A DNA stretch of 64,000 nt. Source: Antedon mediterranea (Eukaryota; Animalia; Echinodermata). Position numbers and translations under genes: made by a program. The DNA lies in the NCBI RefSeq assembly GCF_964355755.1, contig NC_092670.1:6066201-6130200 (forward strand), given 5' to 3'. Shown in pieces: positions 2,541-44,348 of the stretch; positions within the stretch are counted from its first letter, which is position 1; every line of letters starts with the position of its first letter. The notes beneath the pieces are model-generated. The model ran no database searches. It saw nothing but the letters and a program-made list of their open reading frames with translations, and had not been told where the DNA came from.

Positions 2541-2660
2541 AACGGATGTTCCACTTAAACTATTAGTACACAATGCCCTCGTAGGGAGACTGATCGGTGT
2601 TGGTGGACGAACATTGAAAAAAATAATCGATGACACAAAGGCTACCATCAGAATCTCCCC
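2541..2660 (+). CDS. IGF2BP: IGF2BP exon: KH2 N-terminal part
   Basis: [40 protein letters not shown]; cctttag acceptor, GTAAGT donor. Confidence 0.93.
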
Positions 2661-2797
2661 GTAAGTATTGTGTGAATCGACAAATCATTTATTAATTTCA
2701 ACAGAGAATATGCATTCAATCCGCATACAGTTTAAATAGTAACGGCTCATAAAGGCAGCATTTTTGCACCATTATAACAGGAGTTTATTTCCAATAG

Positions 2798-3050
2798 AAT
2801 ATATGAAATGACCTATATCAAACCAGAGAGGACAGTCTTTATTCGTGGCTCAGATGAACAATGTGAAGCCGCAGTGAAAGAAGTGACACAGAAGCTGTTT
2901 GAGATATATCAGAACCATGTACAGAATGTGCAGCAGCAACAACAGCATAATCTCTTCCCTGGCCTAGATCACATGGCGTTGTTCTCTGGAATGGGCAATA
3001 TGCCACAATACAACAATATGTACAACGGTGGATTTAACATGAATGATATG
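2798..3050 (+). CDS. IGF2BP: IGF2BP exon: KH2 C-terminal part and Q/N-rich linker
   Basis: IYEMTYIKPERTVFIRGSDEQCEAAVKEVTQKL...QQQQQHNLFPGLDHMALF, with IMP-like PERT and LFPGL motifs. ccaatag acceptor gives the correct phase; GTAAG donor. Confidence 0.9.
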
Positions 3051-3225
3051 GTAAGCTAAGCACAGTGCTTCAATCACACAATATCCTTGAGTTTGGGTCT
3101 CTCTCTTCATTGTAAACACAAAGTTCACATGGAAATAGTTTTGTGTATGTTGGGCTGCCCGACATTTCAATAGACATTTTACTTGTATTATGCATTTCAT
3201 AACAATTTTCAAACGTGGTTTTACT

Positions 3226-3313
3226 GTGGATAACTGTATGATGAATACATTGAGCCAATCCTGTGAGAGAATCGGTGATATAAAAAACAATGTTTTTCCT
3301 GATGGCTATCCAC
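3226..3313 (+). ncRNA. Candidate intronic box C/D snoRNA, copy A
   Basis: C box ATGATGA 3238-3244, D' GTGA 3263-3266, C'-like GTGATAT 3275-3281, D box CTGA 3299-3302. Terminal stem GTGGATAAC/GCTATCCAC. Guide GAGCCAATCCT is complementary to the conserved 28S rRNA segment AGGAUUGGCUC. Confidence 0.75.
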
Positions 3314-3459
3314 CACTGTTTTTGTGTTTATTATTGCAGTAAATAAATGTTTAAATCAATTAAATTATAAGCGAAAGCAACTATTATTGCACATCCAGCA
3401 TTTAAATTTTAATTGAATATAATAGTAATTGATTTTAATGTGTGCATTTGTATTTTCAG

Positions 3460-3546
3460 GCTCCAAATCAAGGTGGTATTTTACCAGGGTTATACTACCC
3501 ACAAGGTGGCCAGAATAACCAGAGTCAACAACATCCACAAGTTAGT
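3460..3546 (+). CDS. IGF2BP: IGF2BP exon: low-complexity KH2-KH3 linker (alternative donor at 3540)
   Basis: ttttcag acceptor. APNQGGILPGLYYPQGGQNNQSQQHPQ(VS). Two in-frame donors: GTTAGT at 3541 and GTAAGT at 3547. Confidence 0.8.
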
Positions 3547-3885
3547 GTAAGTAATGCAACCACTATCGGTGGTGTCATGTTTAGCCTGCTGCAGCTATTT
3601 TTGAGAACCTGGGGAAAATCTAGGGACCAGCCTAGCACTTCAGACCAATGAGCATTATATTGTTACTTCCCCTAGGCCTAATTAATATTAATAATGTATG
3701 ATTTTTTTTTTGCTACTGATCGAATAAATAATATTCATTGTGTAACCACTGTGCACAGTGATACAAATTTGATGAAAAGAATCCCACAAAATTGTAACTA
3801 TAATAATGAACAAAAAAATGTCATTCTATGCATTTCGACAAGTTTATGAATTCATTTTGAATTATGTGCACTTTAGTAATGCTTG

Positions 3886-3967
3886 GATAACTGAATGATG
3901 AATACATTGAGCCAATCCTGTGAGAGAACCAGTGATGTAAAAAACAATGTTTATCCTGACTGTTATC
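3886..3967 (+). ncRNA. Candidate intronic box C/D snoRNA, copy B
   Basis: C box ATGATGA 3895-3901, identical guide 3909-3919, D' GTGA, C'-like GTGATGT 3932-3938, D box CTGA 3956-3959. Stem GATAAC/GTTATC, plus an outer stem GTGCACT(3866)/AGTGCAC(3980). Confidence 0.75.
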
Positions 3968-4368
3968 ACGGTTTGATGCAGTGCACTATAACAATCTGAT
4001 ACTAGCAGCTGCACAAGTATGGCAATCCCACTTGTGGATGCCTTGAGATGTTTCTATGCAGCGTTCACAATAACACTGGTCCACCGGCCAATGTCATTGA
4101 AATCGAAGACGAAATATCAATATTTTTACTCAATTCACCTTTTCACAATTTCCTTGCAAAACATTTCACAACTAGACTTGAATTTATTTAGTATAGTTTT
4201 TAATTGGAACTTGTGTGTTATGTTTACACTAAGCTAACTGAATGACCTTAAAATAAGCTTTCTGGGTGGGTGGAAGATTTTTAAAGGATCCCGCCCACCT
4301 CCACCCACAATTAATTACATGCGTGTTGTTGCAGTATCTTTTATTTGAAGTCTTTTTCTTTTGCACAG

Positions 4369-4479
4369 TCAAATGAGACCGCTTTCCTGTACATTCCCAA
4401 AGATTCAGTAGGTGCTCTAATTGGTGTCAAGGGTAAACACATTCAGGAAATTGCACGCAAGTCTAGTGCATCCATCAAG
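4369..4479 (+). CDS. IGF2BP: IGF2BP exon: KH3 N-terminal part
   Basis: SNETAFLYIPKDSVGALIGVKGKHIQEIARKSSASIK; ttgcacag acceptor, AAG|GTAAG donor. Confidence 0.93.
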
Positions 4480-4916
4480 GTAAGATGCCTTCCACATGCT
4501 ATTGTTGAATTTGTTCAACCTTTATTGAGATTACCCAAAATTACCTTGAATGTGCCAAACATATTTATTGCAAGCCTTGCATATCTGTTTACCAGATCCA
4601 AAAAATAATTGAAATTGCAAAGCCTAGTTATTTTTTTAACTGAACCCTCTTTCAGATATTTATCTTAAATGTTATAATAGTAAAACTGAAGCTTTTTATT
4701 TATCTTCCACTCCATGCATAATGTGCGGTCTTTGTAGACTGTTCCATTTTGATTGCAGAACTATATAAATGTACATTAAAGCAGGATGTTGGGATTGCCC
4801 TAACTAATCTCAATGCAATGTAAATTAATCATAAACCTCGTTTTAACTTTATTAAAACCTTTCTCATAAATATAGTGTACATATAGTCATAGTTTTTGAT
4901 CCAAATTTTTTTTAAG

Positions 4917-5267
4917 ATTGCCCCAGCTGATGATGATACAAACATGGAACGAAAAGTGACAGTCATCGGCAGCCCAGAAGCACAATGGAAGGCACAATTC
5001 TACATCTATGACAAAATCAGGCGAGAAGGATTCTTCGGCAGTGACGAGGTTCGCCTGGCCTCCGAGGTTGCTGTTCCTGGACGTTTCGTTGGACATATCA
5101 TTGGCAAGAAAGGACGCAATGTTCGTGAATTGCAGCGTGTGACAAGTGCTCGTGTTGAGGTGCCAAAGAACGATGTGAATAATGGTAGTGGAGATGCTGA
5201 GGAGACAACAGATGAGACAGAAAAGGAAGTGTGTGTTCGTATCTTTGGACACTTCTACTCAGCCCAA
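4917..5267 (+). CDS. IGF2BP: IGF2BP exon: KH3 C-terminal part and KH4
   Basis: IAPADDDTNMERKVTVIGSPEAQWKAQFYIYDKIRREGFFG...VGHIIGKKGRNVRELQRVTSARVEVP...RIFGHFYSAQ. The GSPEAQWKAQ and GHFYSAQ motifs are characteristic of IMP proteins. Confidence 0.96.
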
Positions 5268-31984: not shown

Positions 31985-32252
31985 CACACAGGACCAACAA
32001 ATTTACATTCCATCTGAACGACGAGGAAATGAGAGTAAAGCATCTTGCCTATATATAAAATTAGTATGGTACATATAGGCACGAACCCATGCCTATCACA
32101 TGCTAGTCTGATATTATTAATTACACCATTCTTTCTGGTATATACAGCACCCCACATGATCCCAGATGATCTCCCATCCAGAACGCAACTGGGTCCAACG
32201 TTGCTTAACTTCAGTAACAAGAACCAGTGTTTCAACGCAGTATGGCCGTATA
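31985..32252 (-). mobile_element. 5S rRNA-derived plus tRNA-derived chimeric SINE (degenerate)
   Basis: Minus strand 32250-32143 reads TACGGCCATACTGCGTTGAAACACTGGTTCTTG...GAAGTTAAGCAACGTTGG...TGGATGGGAGA...GGGTGCTGTA, a degenerate 5S rRNA. It is followed by tRNA-like A and B boxes and a Deu-like motif. Confidence 0.7.
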
Positions 32253-35200
32253 TGAACAAATATTGTTTTGTTTGTATAATATTAATACATACATGCTTTT
32301 TAAAAGATAATATTCATAGTAGACACATGGTATAAAGCCTATGTTGAAACGCTTTGTTTACAACATTACACCATCACCAAAGACAAAGAATAATCTTTTA
32401 ATCATCTGTGATTGGTCTAAACCTGTGAAGAACTACCATTCTTACTTCCACAGATTGTACATGATAGTATTAATGAATAATATACAATGCAGTATCACAG
32501 GTTAAGTATGTACTAAAACAAAGACACCTAAAATATTAATAACACGTTTTCATACGTTCTTAAATATGTTGTTTTTCCACAAAAAAATTGTATACGCTGC
32601 AAATAAAAAATTATTATTATTTTATATGATCCATTTTAACTAGAAACTAATTGGGATTTTAGCGAGCTTTACAGATGAAGAAGACAGTTTTGGAAAATGT
32701 TCGATATTATTATTTATTATGGATTGTTTGCTGCAGTGAAATTTATTTTGCACAACAACAACAACAGCAATTTCAAACCTGTTTTCTGTAAAATAATATT
32801 ATCCTATTAAGTAGAGTGGAGTAGGTTTGTACAGTTTTGCACAGTTTAGAAATACTTGTTTTCTCTATGCTGTATAAAAAGTATTTCATAATGTATATGC
32901 TCACACAATAATTGACAGTTCAGAAAAATGGATTTGTGTCCAAGGTTGGCCAGAAATATTGAAAAGAGGAGATTGATTTTGCCTCAACCTGTGCTACAGA
33001 TGGGATGGGTGATCACACCGATCGTGTCATCTTTTACGCTTCCATGATCACCCAGATCATCATAATTCATAATATCTATCCATGCTTAGGTAAACTTTGT
33101 ATTGTTAACCACAGTGGTCAATTGAGTACAACTTTACATCTACTACAGTAGACAGACATCAAATGTGGGTCATAGTCCAATCCACAGAAAATGGACATTT
33201 GTCCTGTCTTCATGTATTTTGTAATGTACTGTACTATGGGTGACCGGTAAATAAGCTTTGTACTTGCGGTCATCCATTTGTTGTTATCATTTATAATGTA
33301 ATAACAAAAAAAAAAATTGAAACTTTGTAGTTCTACACACTATCAAGTATAACTATTTGTGAGGCATCAAATATCAAAAATTAAGTTTAAACAAAAATCA
33401 CACTAAAAATTGCTTAACATCAACATTTATAGTGTTAGTTGTCTGTAATGTAATGTAATGATCGCCTGTGCTTCCGACATCAAGCATCAAGGACACAGGC
33501 TTTTTTCCATTCTATTGCAATCAGGTTACCCCGTGTCTGGGTCCAGCTTCCCAGACCGTTGACTGATCCTAGAAAGCCCATCAGCCTTCATTAGAAAAGT
33601 TCATATTCATTTTGATTCGCTGTAACTGTATTTTGTCTTTTGTCTTTTATCTGGAAACTGACTGACGGCTCAGCTACAGTTCACTTAGGTTGACCCTGGT
33701 CTCCCCAATTTCAGTTTTTTTTTGTTATCAAATAGACCAAATAAATAATGAAATGAAATGAAATGTGCTTTGAAATGTTTTGATGCAAGGCGCAATATAA
33801 ATGGTTTATGTATGGTATGTATCAAGAGAGGAACAACATTTGAAATAAAATGTTTCTCCCACAGCTGAAGTTAAAAAAGCATAAATACAATAAACTGAAC
33901 ATGGAAGGTTTAAGAAAGGAATGACAAAATCATTTCACATAGTTAGGGATCATGTCAAATTCTACTGCAGTTACTGCAGTAAACTTAATTAATCAATTTA
34001 TTTAGCAAGTAATCACTGTTATTAGAGTGAATGCTTCATAAACTTCTACATTGAAACAGACTAAACCATACATTATTGCAAGGAATAAATGTAGTTAAGC
34101 CTACTGCAGTGAAACAGTAGAATAATTTCGACATTAAATATTTATTATTATTTTGACATTAATTTTGATCAAATAATGAAACAATTATGCTTATTTTAAC
34201 TATAAAAACAAAAAAGGGATAGGAAGCTGGGGAGTGGCAAGTTATCTAGACATATTTAACATGTTGAATTTGTTTTGTAGAAATAGACAATTCTCGATGA
34301 AAATCCTACTTCTGTTATTATTCCTATATAATGGACAGTAAAATATAAAAAACTATATTAATCATATCCAGCTCGTGTCCACACTTTAATTTATATATTC
34401 ACTTTCTATAATGTATTAATCAATTTAGATAAGCATGCATAATTAATTACAACATTCATTATGTTAATTACCAAATAAAAATCAAACATATCAAGTGTTT
34501 CTACAATAAATCACTACCTAAATGTTATGACATTTTTCTTATAAATGTTAATATGAAAGTTATTTAATATTGTGAAGACAAAAATATAGGAATTCAAAGT
34601 ATTTTATTTCTTAATGTTCAGAATGTAAAATTCTCCTGAGAGAGTCTTGTTTATTCCTGGAATGCAAACTTGTATTGAATCTTAATGAATAAGAATTATG
34701 ATAATGTTTATGATGACAATATGATATTTGATCTGACTGAAGCAAGGATATATAGAGTTTAAATGCATTAGCATATTCAAGGATAGATGAAAAGGGTGTG
34801 TGACATGATCTTTAAACAGTAGAAAGAGGTAGCAACTAAAGGCTGTGATTTATACAATATAAACACAATTATATATTTAATGCTATGTGTGTTGCAGGTC
34901 CACTTTTTATTAAAAAATCTCAAAAGAACTGTTTTCCGTTTTTGGTTGTTCGATCAGACTGCACTCAACATTTTAAAATAGAAGGGTGAAATTGCCAAAA
35001 CCAGGGCCTAAACAAGTTTTTTTTTTAAATATTAAATGAAGTGCTGAACTAGCCTACTACTATATTTTGCATTGTATTACTGCCTCTCCCCTTTTTAGTT
35101 TTTATCCAACTAGGAAAATTATAATAAAAGTTTTAGTTTTCTCTGCACTTAATTTATTACTTACTTTAGGAAAGAATAATATTTCAAAATTTAATGAAGT

Positions 35201-41700: not shown

Positions 41701-42942
41701 GGTAGGTACCTTATTACCTATTAAATATTTAATAAGTTAATAAAAGATTATTATGTAGATGTTATGTTAATTTAATATTTTATTAATGATCTTATAAGGT
41801 TATATGAAAATATTTCCTTGAAGAGATGAGTACACATTGTATATATATATTGTATATTACAATACTCGGGCTGAAAGCACCAAAAGAAGTAGTGTTTCAT
41901 AAAAAAAATTGTTGTAATTAATAATAACCTTATTTGTGCGTTCCGACTTCCATAAAGACAGCCCATGTAGTTAATATTACCGTCACGATCTGGTCTGCTC
42001 TGTATTACCTGCTTATGCAGTGAAGCTTATTAAAATATGTTTGAAACATCCTATCAACAATTGTTCGTACCCTCTATTCGGTAAAGACACCTTTTATTGA
42101 ACCCTGGTAATTACATTCTGTTTAAAGTCAGCCAGCTTGGGTCTAACTTTGGGAAAAATTACAGTTATAGTTATAGTGAATAGCATTTTCCAACATATTT
42201 TTGAAAATGAACATTTTTCAAATGAGTTCATATAATTTTAAGACACAATGACCAAAAGTCATCATCAGCTACTGTAAGGTAGGCCTCTTTCACTGCCTCT
42301 AGTTTCAAAAGAGCACTTCTGAATGAAAGGGGTGCGGTTGGGTATTTCAAACCCTCAAACAACATGACAGTGATCCCAAACAGTATTAGAAGCTAATGTA
42401 CGCCAATTTAAATTAGTCTCGGCATTCTGTTTCTCATCACTCATGAAATTATGCATTCATTTGTGATTCAGCATCTCTCATATTGAGATACTGATTATTT
42501 GTGGTTGATAATGAGCTATCTATTGATGCATGGAATGTGTTTTGGTGTATCCATAAGGTTGTTAGGCTATCAAAAAGAAGATGAGTCAACATTTTGAAAT
42601 CTTATATATTCATTCTTCATTAAAAATATTATCCTAGCCTCATAACAATAGTGACCTTGTATGCATATGCTATTATTCAATGACAGACTTTATGGAAATG
42701 AGTAAAGATTTTATAATTTGATAAATGATCTCAATAGTTATCATATCTACTGATTGTTTATTCTTATATATTCTCTCTTTTGTTTCTCTATCATCTTTCT
42801 TTTCTTCCTCAATCATCTCTCTTTCCTTTCTCTTTTATCTTCTCTCTTTCCTCAATAATATCTCCTTCTATTATCATCTCTCTTTCCTTCCTCTACCATC
42901 ATTTCTCTGTCCTTCCTCTACCATCTCTCTTTCTTTCCTCAA

Positions 42943-43475
42943 TCATCTTTCTCCTTTCTCTATCATCATCTCTCTTTCTCCTTTCTCTATCATCATCTCT
43001 CTTTCTCCTTTCTCTATCATATCTCTTTCTCCTTTCTCTATCATCATCTCTCTTTCTCCTTTCTCTATCATCATCTCTCTTTCTCCTTTCTCTATCATCT
43101 CTCTTTCTCCTTTCTCTATCATCATCTCTCTTTCTCCTTTCTCTATCATCATCTCTCTTTCTCCTTTCTCTATCATCATCTCTCTTTCTCCTTTCTCTAT
43201 CATCATCTCTCTTTCTCTATCATCATCTCTCTTTCTCCTTTCTCTATCATCTCTCTTTCTCCTTTCTCTATCATCTCTCTTTCTCCTTTCTCTATCATCT
43301 CTCTTTCTCCTTTCTCTATCATCTCTCTTTCTCCTTTCTCTATCATCTCTCTTTCTCCTTTCTCTATCATCTCTCTTTCTCCTTTCTCTATCATCATCTC
43401 TCTTTCTTCTTTCTCTATCATCTCTCTTTCTCCTTTCTCTATCATCTCTCTTTCTCCTTTCTCTATCATCTCTCT
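42943..43475. repeat. CT-rich minisatellite with 24/27-bp units, inside a ~0.85-kb pyrimidine tract (42760-43610)
   Basis: About 20 copies of TCTCTATCATC(ATC)TCTCTTTCTCCTT. Confidence 0.95.
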
Positions 43476-44348
43476 TCCTCCTTTATATATCATCTTCTCT
43501 TTTATTTTCTGTATCACCATCTCTCTTTCTGCTTTCTCTATCATCTTCTCTCGTTTCTTTTTCTAACATCTTCACTCTTTCCTTTCTCTATCATCTCTCT
43601 TTCATTTTGCAATCACCATAATGTAATTTTCCTTAAACATGCTTTGCGGCTCTTTTTTGTTGTTACTCTGTTGTTTACTTTTCTTTCTATTGTACTTTCT
43701 TTTCTTCTTTATTATGCTTTAATGTTGTATCTATGTAATTTTGTTTGTCTTCTTCATTGTATACTTTTTTCATTTCACAATCTACTTTTCTTTTTATCAT
43801 TATAATTGGCTAGCTTTCCCTTTCTCCATCATCTTCTATTGCTAACAGTATTATATTTCAACATTGAATATTGATTATTTGTATTTGGTATATTTCATTT
43901 TTTTATGAAAGTACAAAGCTGTAAACAAACAAAGAACATAAGAAAAGAGTTTGAAATAAATCACAGTCCACTATCTCACCAAAGTGGAAGAAGATAAGAG
44001 ATTAAAAAATAATTTTTTTAATACAATATATTCGTAAACAAACTATAATCAATGAATAGTTTAAATTCTAAAATAATGTCTTGAGCTTCTAAAAATTATT
44101 ACATTAAAAAAAATCCATGAATAAAAATCCAATTTTTATGCATATTTTCTAGATGTTTCTCTTTCATTTTCCTTTCTCCCATTCTTCCTTCCTTAGCATT
44201 GTTTCGTCTACCTCACAGAAACAATAAAATCAAATTTAAATTCTGCTCATTGGCAACACATTGAGAGCATATTACAGTCAATTTACCCATTAGCTAGTTG
44301 AAAGATGAAGACTAAATTACCTTAATATAAATGTCTTTATTATTTCAG

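What the first reader, a model, noticed from the sequence alone, without database searches (positions are those of the whole stretch)
3226..3986. Duplicated box C/D snoRNA in two consecutive IGF2BP introns, with a 28S rRNA guide
An ~80-nt sequence recurs 657 nt apart in adjacent introns, and the similarity stops at the terminal stems. Both copies keep C (ATGATGA), D' (GTGA), C'-like and D (CTGA) boxes, each with its own closing stem. The invariant 11-mer before D', GAGCCAATCCT, is the reverse complement of the conserved large-subunit rRNA segment AGGAUUGGCUC. The D+5 rule predicts 2'-O-methylation of the first U of AGGAUUGG, a few nt downstream of the site I recall for SNORD50. I do not recall a guide for this exact U, nor IGF2BP genes as snoRNA hosts, so this may be an undescribed guide, modification site and host combination.
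Basis: partly seen in the sequence, partly recalled or inferred. Interest (0 to 1): 0.78.

Follow-up and report, generated by a model that had tools for sequence, protein, structure and literature searches.

The report
Feather-star snoRNA pair, new 28S target
Two near-identical small guide-RNA genes sit in neighbouring introns of a feather star's IGF2BP gene and are predicted to methylate a large-subunit ribosomal RNA uridine that is unmarked in the modification lists I could check, an ordinary kind of RNA with a likely new and still untested target.

Summary
Confirmed: two 84-nt copies (90% identical, 657 nt apart) lie in consecutive introns of a crinoid IGF2BP/Imp gene; RNA contigs splice out both introns. 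Both carry C, D', C' and D boxes and a terminal stem. A related species holds both copies at the same places with conserved cores and diverged flanks. Contig depth indicates two copies, not a repeat family. No Rfam family reaches its threshold. The D' guide pairs 11 of 11 with eukaryotic LSU rRNA (chance 0.6-0.7% per guide) and predicts 2'-O-methylation of the U equivalent to human 28S U2886, ten nt after the SNORD50 site. That site is absent from a six-species table and from the tomato, tobacco and trypanosomatid lists. New here: the RNA aligns box-for-box with SNORD110, the 18S Um1288 guide. Their guides differ at positions 1, 8, 10 and 11, and all four crinoid letters pair with 28S. It may be a SNORD110 relative retargeted from 18S to 28S, but the Rfam score (12.8 bits, cut-off 64) does not show homology. 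Not shown: a mature small RNA, the methyl group, the crinoid's own rRNA sequence. Euglena and nematode maps were not checked. The scan had not noted this sequence elsewhere.

The parts
3225..3313 (+). Box C/D snoRNA gene, copy 1, with terminal stem; 157 nt from its D box to the 3' splice site
   Evidence: core conserved in organism B, where 3306 C>T turns the stem's one A-C mismatch into an A-U pair
3238..3244 (+). C box, copy 1 (ATGATGA)
3252..3262 (+). D' guide, copy 1: 11 nt complementary to LSU rRNA; A3258 is position 5 and faces the U equivalent to human 28S U2886
3263..3281 (+). D' (GTGA, 3263-3266), 8-nt spacer and degenerate C' (3275-3281), copy 1
   Evidence: both boxes depart from consensus
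3299..3302 (+). D box, copy 1; no rRNA target found for the 17 nt before it
3884..3967 (+). Box C/D snoRNA gene, copy 2: C 3895-3901, guide 3909-3919, D' 3920-3923, C' 3932-3938, D 3956-3959; 409 nt from D box to 3' splice site
3862..3991 (+). Predicted external stem around copy 2 (3862-3872 paired with 3980-3991, 11 pairs, one bulge)
   Evidence: 4 of 500 flank shuffles as stable; alignment to organism B resumes at 3862
3051..3459 (+). IGF2BP intron hosting copy 1
   Evidence: spliced joint in runs X5 and X14
3460..3546 (+). 87-nt exon (linker between KH2 and KH3) between the two host introns
   Evidence: no Pfam family on it, KH_1 on the exons either side
3547..4368 (+). IGF2BP intron hosting copy 2
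   Evidence: spliced joint in run X5
2541..5267 (+). KH2-KH4 region of the host gene IGF2BP/Imp
   Evidence: 94% identity of the exon at 4920-5267 to P0001, named IGF2BP3 of Anneissia japonica; 83 of 84 residues for the exon ending at 3050; KH_1 hits

Best explanation
These are two paralogous intronic box C/D snoRNA genes that are likely trimmed out of IGF2BP introns and are predicted to guide 2'-O-methylation of the 28S rRNA uridine equivalent to human U2886. Shown: the two copies, their boxes, their place in spliced introns, their conservation in a second species, and an 11-of-11 match of the D' guide to eukaryotic LSU rRNA. Inferred from the known snoRNP pathway: Snu13, Nop56/58 and fibrillarin assemble on the C/D and C'/D' motifs, exonucleases trim the debranched intron to about 70-80 nt, the guide opens a 5-bp stem of pre-rRNA (helix 62 by recalled numbering) and fibrillarin methylates the nucleotide paired to position 5 before D'. 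The D-side guide is probably idle. The duplication was a local copy of the snoRNA alone and is older than the split from organism B. The RNA may descend from SNORD110, but that is not established.
For: Boxes and stems. Spliced host introns. Both copies at the same places in organism B, at most 2 substitutions in 130 core positions against 16 substitutions and at least 12 indels in 334 aligned flank positions (Fisher p 0.003 with indels). The 34-nt shared core assembles at depth 30 against 13-14.3 beside it, i.e. two copies. 11 Watson-Crick pairs, -18.5 kcal/mol; 29 of 5000 shuffled guides and 37 of 5000 random window 18-mers reach 11 pairs with one full proxy rRNA set. The target 11-mer stands in 22 LSU-like loci and in published primers used on cnidarian and mammalian rRNA. 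18 of the 20 weak Rfam hits on copy 2 are box C/D families.
Against: No small-RNA reads and no methylation data. The crinoid's own 28S and 18S were not seen; the proxy LSU loci were fetched with the target motif, so their match is by construction. The footprint on substitutions alone is not significant (p 0.08). D' and C' are degenerate and their K-loop stem is weak; the GA repeat after the guide allows other registers (G2884, G2888). Strong complementarity does not guarantee modification (PMC8522698, abstract and section 6; its examples there are H/ACA guides). No homologue outside these crinoids was found: 0 of 23 metagenome pattern hits had a purine-led C box together with a D box at the right distance.
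Confidence: 0.62

Rival explanations
1. The pair is the crinoid's SNORD110 and still guides methylation of the 18S U1288 equivalent, alone or besides 28S; the 28S match is then a by-product of a motif that the two rRNA sites share.
For: Box-for-box alignment to the Rfam SNORD110 consensus with the same D'+5 register; guide positions 2-7 and 9 identical; 6 of 10 spacer and 6 of 10 D-side model positions identical, and the same non-canonical end of C' in copy 2 (counted by eye). Um1288 is listed for human, Xenopus and Arabidopsis.
Against: 12.8 bits against a cut-off of 64, below the scores of SNORD27 and SNORD73, which share no guide. Positions 8, 10 and 11 mismatch the 18S site in 3 of 3 proxy SSU sequences (best duplex -4.9 against -18.5 kcal/mol for LSU; none of the three is an echinoderm). 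All three distal differences from SNORD110 pair with 28S, which drift would give about 1 time in 27 (arithmetic).
Confidence: 0.13
2. The RNAs are real, expressed snoRNAs but place no methyl at U2886: they act as pre-rRNA chaperones on this helix, methylate a neighbour through another D' register, or are orphans.
For: Degenerate C'/D' motif; guides that pair without modifying are documented (PMC8522698); the site is unmodified in all six species of the cross-species table.
Against: The complementarity ends exactly at the best D' box and covers positions 1-11 without mismatch; in zebrafish most SNORDs are single guides and two-thirds use the D' element (PMC7668251 passage). G2884 and G2888 are also unlisted, so a shifted register would still be a new site.
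Confidence: 0.2
3. The element is a decayed or chance sequence, or a small repeat, with no RNA product.
For: No direct expression evidence; substitution-only footprint p 0.08.
Against: Four boxes in order, a stem, two copies kept in two species while flanks diverge, two-copy depth, and an 11-nt rRNA match at the rule position.
Confidence: 0.05

Closest known systems
Intronic box C/D 2'-O-methylation guide snoRNAs (class)
   Same: C, D', C', D boxes, terminal stem, one RNA per intron, paralogues in neighbouring introns of one host (as for the zebrafish SNORD52 family, PMC7668251 passage), single D' guide.
   Different: No Rfam family at threshold; predicted site not in the lists read; host is IGF2BP/Imp, for which I found no record as a snoRNA host (weak negatives).
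SNORD110 (Rfam RF00610, clan CL00076; plant AtsnoR14), guide for 18S Um1288
   Same: Same layout and D'+5 register; guide positions 2-7 and 9; part of the spacer, C' and D-side sequence.
   Different: Guide positions 1, 8, 10, 11 differ and all pair with 28S; score 12.8 bits against 64; 7 extra nt on the D side; different stem. Its vertebrate host is NOP56 (recalled).
SNORD50 / fly Me28S-G2173, guide for 28S Gm2876 (and Cm2861)
   Same: Targets the same stretch of 28S, 10 nt upstream.
   Different: Different target nucleotide; SNORD50 is not among the Rfam hits up to E 10.

Membership tests
Box C/D snoRNA class | C box (RUGAUGA) near 5' end and D box (CUGA) near 3' end, 50-100 nt apart | tested here: met
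   65 nt from C to D in both copies; best two of five such motifs in the window by stem score
Box C/D snoRNA class | Terminal stem closing the C/D kink-turn | tested here: met
   organism B repairs the mismatch in copy 1
Box C/D snoRNA class | Internal D' and C' boxes | tested here: met
   D' with 1 mismatch, C' with 2 (copy 1) or 1 (copy 2) mismatches; pairing in the internal motif is weak
Box C/D snoRNA class | 10-21 nt antisense element to rRNA or snRNA just before D or D' | tested here: met
   11 of 11 pairs with proxy LSU rRNAs; the crinoid's own rRNA not seen
Box C/D snoRNA class | Sense-strand position in a spliced intron of an expressed host | tested here: met
Box C/D snoRNA class | Stable small RNA bound by fibrillarin; methyl at the +5 nucleotide | not testable with these tools
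   only contigs of long-read-out libraries were available
SNORD110 (RF00610) | Covariance-model score at or above 64 bits | tested here: not met
   12.8 bits, E 4.5-5.8
SNORD110 (RF00610) | D' guide complementary to the 18S U1288 region | tested here: inconclusive
   positions 8, 10, 11 mismatch in 3 of 3 proxy SSU sequences; no echinoderm 18S available
SNORD110 (RF00610) | Homology outside the guide | tested here: inconclusive
   12 of 20 non-box, non-guide model positions 3' of D' identical with three gaps (by eye); unrelated families score higher
SNORD50 (28S Gm2876/Cm2861 guide) | Guide placing +5 on G2876 or C2861 | tested here: not met
   +5 falls 10 nt 3' of G2876

The most novel reading that the evidence does not exclude
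A SNORD110-family snoRNA in crinoids has switched ribosomal subunit. Because the 18S U1288 site and the 28S U2886 site share a short motif, three changes in the distal guide moved it from 18S to 28S, and it now installs a lineage-specific 2'-O-methyl in helix 62 at intersubunit bridge B6, a site marked in no mapped eukaryote. The retargeted gene was then duplicated in IGF2BP introns, tying the new mark to a developmentally regulated host.
Probability: 0.22. Interest if true: 0.62.

Novelty: new member of a known kind. Interest (0 to 1): 0.42.

Why it matters
I found no paper on echinoderm snoRNAs or rRNA methylation in one search (3 papers held the terms, 2 listed, both general reviews). A conserved, duplicated guide for an unlisted 28S site gives a precise prediction that one primer extension can test. 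If the SNORD110 link holds, it is a clean example of how a new rRNA modification arises: a few guide changes across a motif shared by the two subunits. The host also matters mildly: snoRNA hosts tend to be broadly expressed (PMC3511168 passages), whereas IGF2BP/Imp is known as a developmentally regulated RNA-binding protein (recalled), so the mark could vary with stage. The mechanism itself is ordinary.

Tried and rejected
No whole genome is held for this window, so further copies, a canonical SNORD110 and the organism's rDNA could not be searched. No RNA holder was listed as such; low-depth intronic contigs in X5 and X13 (depth 2.5-7 against 395 and 3299 on exons) extend far beyond the boxes and say nothing about a mature RNA. 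X6 laid nothing. Metagenome scan for homologues: 23 hits, none with a purine-led C box plus a D box; treated as chance. D-side guide: longest perfect match 6 nt in the full proxy rRNA set and no shared target across 18 proxy sequences, and the copies differ there; snRNAs were not tested as targets. High-copy repeat: rejected on two-copy depth and window BLAST. Exon-plus-intron duplication: rejected, similarity is confined to the 84 nt. External stem for copy 1: not above shuffles, 183 of 500. Canonical SNORD110 guide in the window: one 1-mismatch hit, at chance level. Literature: guide and target strings in full text gave 0 papers and 35 papers, none on snoRNAs by title; position names gave 2 papers, both other positions in plant numbering. 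Supplement searches for the guide: none in fly, trypanosomatids (files 7 and 13-18 of 18 not searched), Ostreococcus or one Tetrahymena paper. The fungal snoRNAome text was uninformative. The Euglena table was unreadable and a second Euglena paper is not held. Imp as a fly snoRNA host: 0 hits, but the control word Nop56 also gave 0, so this negative is weak.

Full report
Observation. The repeat is real: 84 nt at 3227-3310 and 3884-3967, 90% identical, 657 nt apart. BLAST of the two neighbouring blocks finds nothing else above 11 nt, and the window has no third full copy. Each copy has a C box, an 18-nt stretch ending in the guide, a D' box (GTGA), an 8-nt spacer, a degenerate C' box, an A-rich stretch and a D box. 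None of the 8 differences falls in the C box, guide, D' or D box. The terminal stems share one core and differ near the boxes and in their outer extension.

Host. The exons encode KH domains. The exon at 4920-5267 is 94% identical to a protein named IGF2BP3 of the feather star Anneissia japonica, with a starfish IGF2BP next at 55%, and the exon before copy 1 matches it at 83 of 84 residues. The window is therefore likely a crinoid. An RNA-type contig (run X5) skips 3051-3459 and 3547-4368, both GT..AG, so the copies lie on the sense strand of two consecutive introns around an 87-nt exon. Run X13 of organism B shows the same exon joined to its neighbours (loose ends). The D boxes are 157 and 409 nt from the 3' splice sites. 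Copy 2, the distant one, has a predicted 11-pair external stem (3862-3872 with 3980-3991; 4 of 500 flank shuffles as stable), while copy 1 does not (183 of 500). External stems helping snoRNAs far from the branch point is recalled knowledge.

Conservation and copy number. DNA runs of a second species (organism B; X7, X9) hold both copies at the same places. No difference is listed inside either C-to-D core; the piece tables leave room for at most one unlisted difference in each of the two main pieces. The flanks carry 16 substitutions and at least 12 indels in 334 aligned positions, and 3170-3202 and 3707-3861 do not align. Fisher p is 0.08 on substitutions alone and 0.003 with indels (counts entered by hand). 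B's 3306 C>T turns copy 1's A-C mismatch into a pair. B's alignment resumes at 3862, where the external stem begins. In X1 the 34-nt core shared by the copies assembles at depth 30 against 13-14.3 beside it, which means two copies; X7 contigs break at the same places, so the core is shared between copies in B too.

Rfam. At gathering thresholds the window holds only a 5S-like sequence. At E up to 10 the copies draw weak hits, 18 of 20 to box C/D families for copy 2 (best 22.1 bits against a cut-off of 45) and 5 of 7 for copy 1. This supports the class and no family.

Target. Eukaryotic rRNA contaminating prokaryote assemblies served as proxy (8 of 54 loci given to Rfam, all 8 with an LSU hit; 22 of 54 LSU-like by context). 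These were fetched with the target motif, so they show that the motif is LSU rRNA, not how often it is conserved. The guide pairs 11 of 11 and position 5 faces the first U. Against one full 18S+5.8S+28S set, 29 of 5000 shuffled guides and 37 of 5000 random window 18-mers reach 11 pairs; with two guide positions per RNA that is about 1.2-1.5%. The guide string also occurs in primers used on cnidarian rRNA (PMC4860332, primer table passage) and in a mammalian-cell study (PMC9893547, primer list passage; that it is a 28S primer is inferred from context), which brackets echinoderms. To number the site I used the spacing of ten listed sites upstream: the first G of the run scores best in 9 of 12 loci (7 of 10 letters), ties in one and is second in two that carry upstream indels. 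That G is human Gm2876, so the predicted U is human 2886, yeast 1937, fly 2253. It pairs in a 5-bp stem in 5 of 5 loci folded, helix 62 by recalled numbering; in bacteria H62 contacts h44 at bridge B6 (bioRxiv 2023.06.13.544509, one passage). The D-side stretch found no rRNA target.

Is the site known? Table S4 of PMC11014333 (rows 112-177 read) lists nothing between human 2876 and 3616 for fly, human, yeast, Arabidopsis, Xenopus or Dictyostelium. Table 2 of PMC11542601 (passage) has nothing between Um1892 and Um2114 for Arabidopsis, tomato or tobacco. In PMC13487219 (supplement file 11, rows read) the Leishmania site 1659 maps by its guide to about the Gm2876 position (my inference) and the next listed site is 1701; no listed snoRNA holds the guide. 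For zebrafish (PMC7668251, section 5 and passages) the main text never names 2873 or 2886; its supplement was not seen. Full-text searches for the position names and the guide found nothing relevant. Euglena, with 349 modifications (PMC7672448 passages), could not be checked, nor C. elegans or S. pombe. The site is thus unlisted in what I read, not shown to be unknown.

SNORD110, the guide for 18S Um1288 in human, Xenopus and Arabidopsis, aligns to copy 2 box for box. The guides are identical at positions 2-7 and 9 and put +5 in the same register, because the two rRNA sites share a motif. They differ at 1, 8, 10 and 11, and the crinoid letters all pair with 28S; positions 8, 10 and 11 mismatch the 18S site in 3 of 3 proxy SSU sequences (the 18S position was anchored on a recalled landmark). 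Outside the guide 12 of 20 model positions 3' of D' agree, with three gaps, and copy 2 shares the non-canonical end of C' (by eye). The score is only 12.8 bits against 64 and lower than for families with no shared guide, so homology is suggestive, about one in three in my judgement. The guide similarity is forced by either target and is no evidence of descent. If the RNA does descend from SNORD110, three distal changes that all fit 28S would arise by drift about 1 time in 27, so retargeting is more likely than decay.

Mechanism and verdict. Shown: anatomy, host introns, conservation, complementarity. Inferred: release from the intron, snoRNP assembly, methylation of U2886. Against certainty: no small-RNA or methylation data, a weak C'/D' motif, and published cases of guides that pair without modifying (PMC8522698, abstract and section 6). 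I found no record of IGF2BP genes as hosts (listing only, 56, 69, 84; weak negatives), but snoRNAs move between hosts often (PMC3511168 passages), so a new host is not surprising in itself. The scan's notes hold no look-alike of this sequence and none with these words, though similar kinds of finding exist in other animals. Verdict: a real new member of the box C/D class with a likely undescribed 28S target; moderate interest, higher if the subunit switch from SNORD110 is confirmed.

Noticed in passing
window 32139-32253 (-): Solitary 5S rRNA-like sequence, 46 bits against a cut-off of 38, with a deletion and insertions; probably a pseudogene.
   Followed up: no
window about 4055-4180: Interspersed repeat inside the intron that holds copy 2: many contigs, depth 330-428 against about 48 in X7.
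   Followed up: no
window 41227-41176 (-): C box and D box 52 nt apart with a modest stem; best rRNA matches 9-10 nt, different in the two proxies and not at a box; likely chance.
   Followed up: partly
window 42772-43603: Pyrimidine-rich tandem array, 24-nt unit, about 30 copies; explains the strong GC skew there.
   Followed up: no
window 3319-3480: Run X1 holds a second, strongly diverged contig here (18 substitutions, 13 gap letters in 162 nt), starting just after copy 1, while no variant is listed in the snoRNA core; possibly a divergent allele.
   Followed up: no
L026, L029, L031, L036-L040, L046, L049, L054 and others: 22 of 54 hits in prokaryote genome records are eukaryotic LSU rRNA contamination; L031 and L040 include complete 18S genes.
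   Followed up: partly
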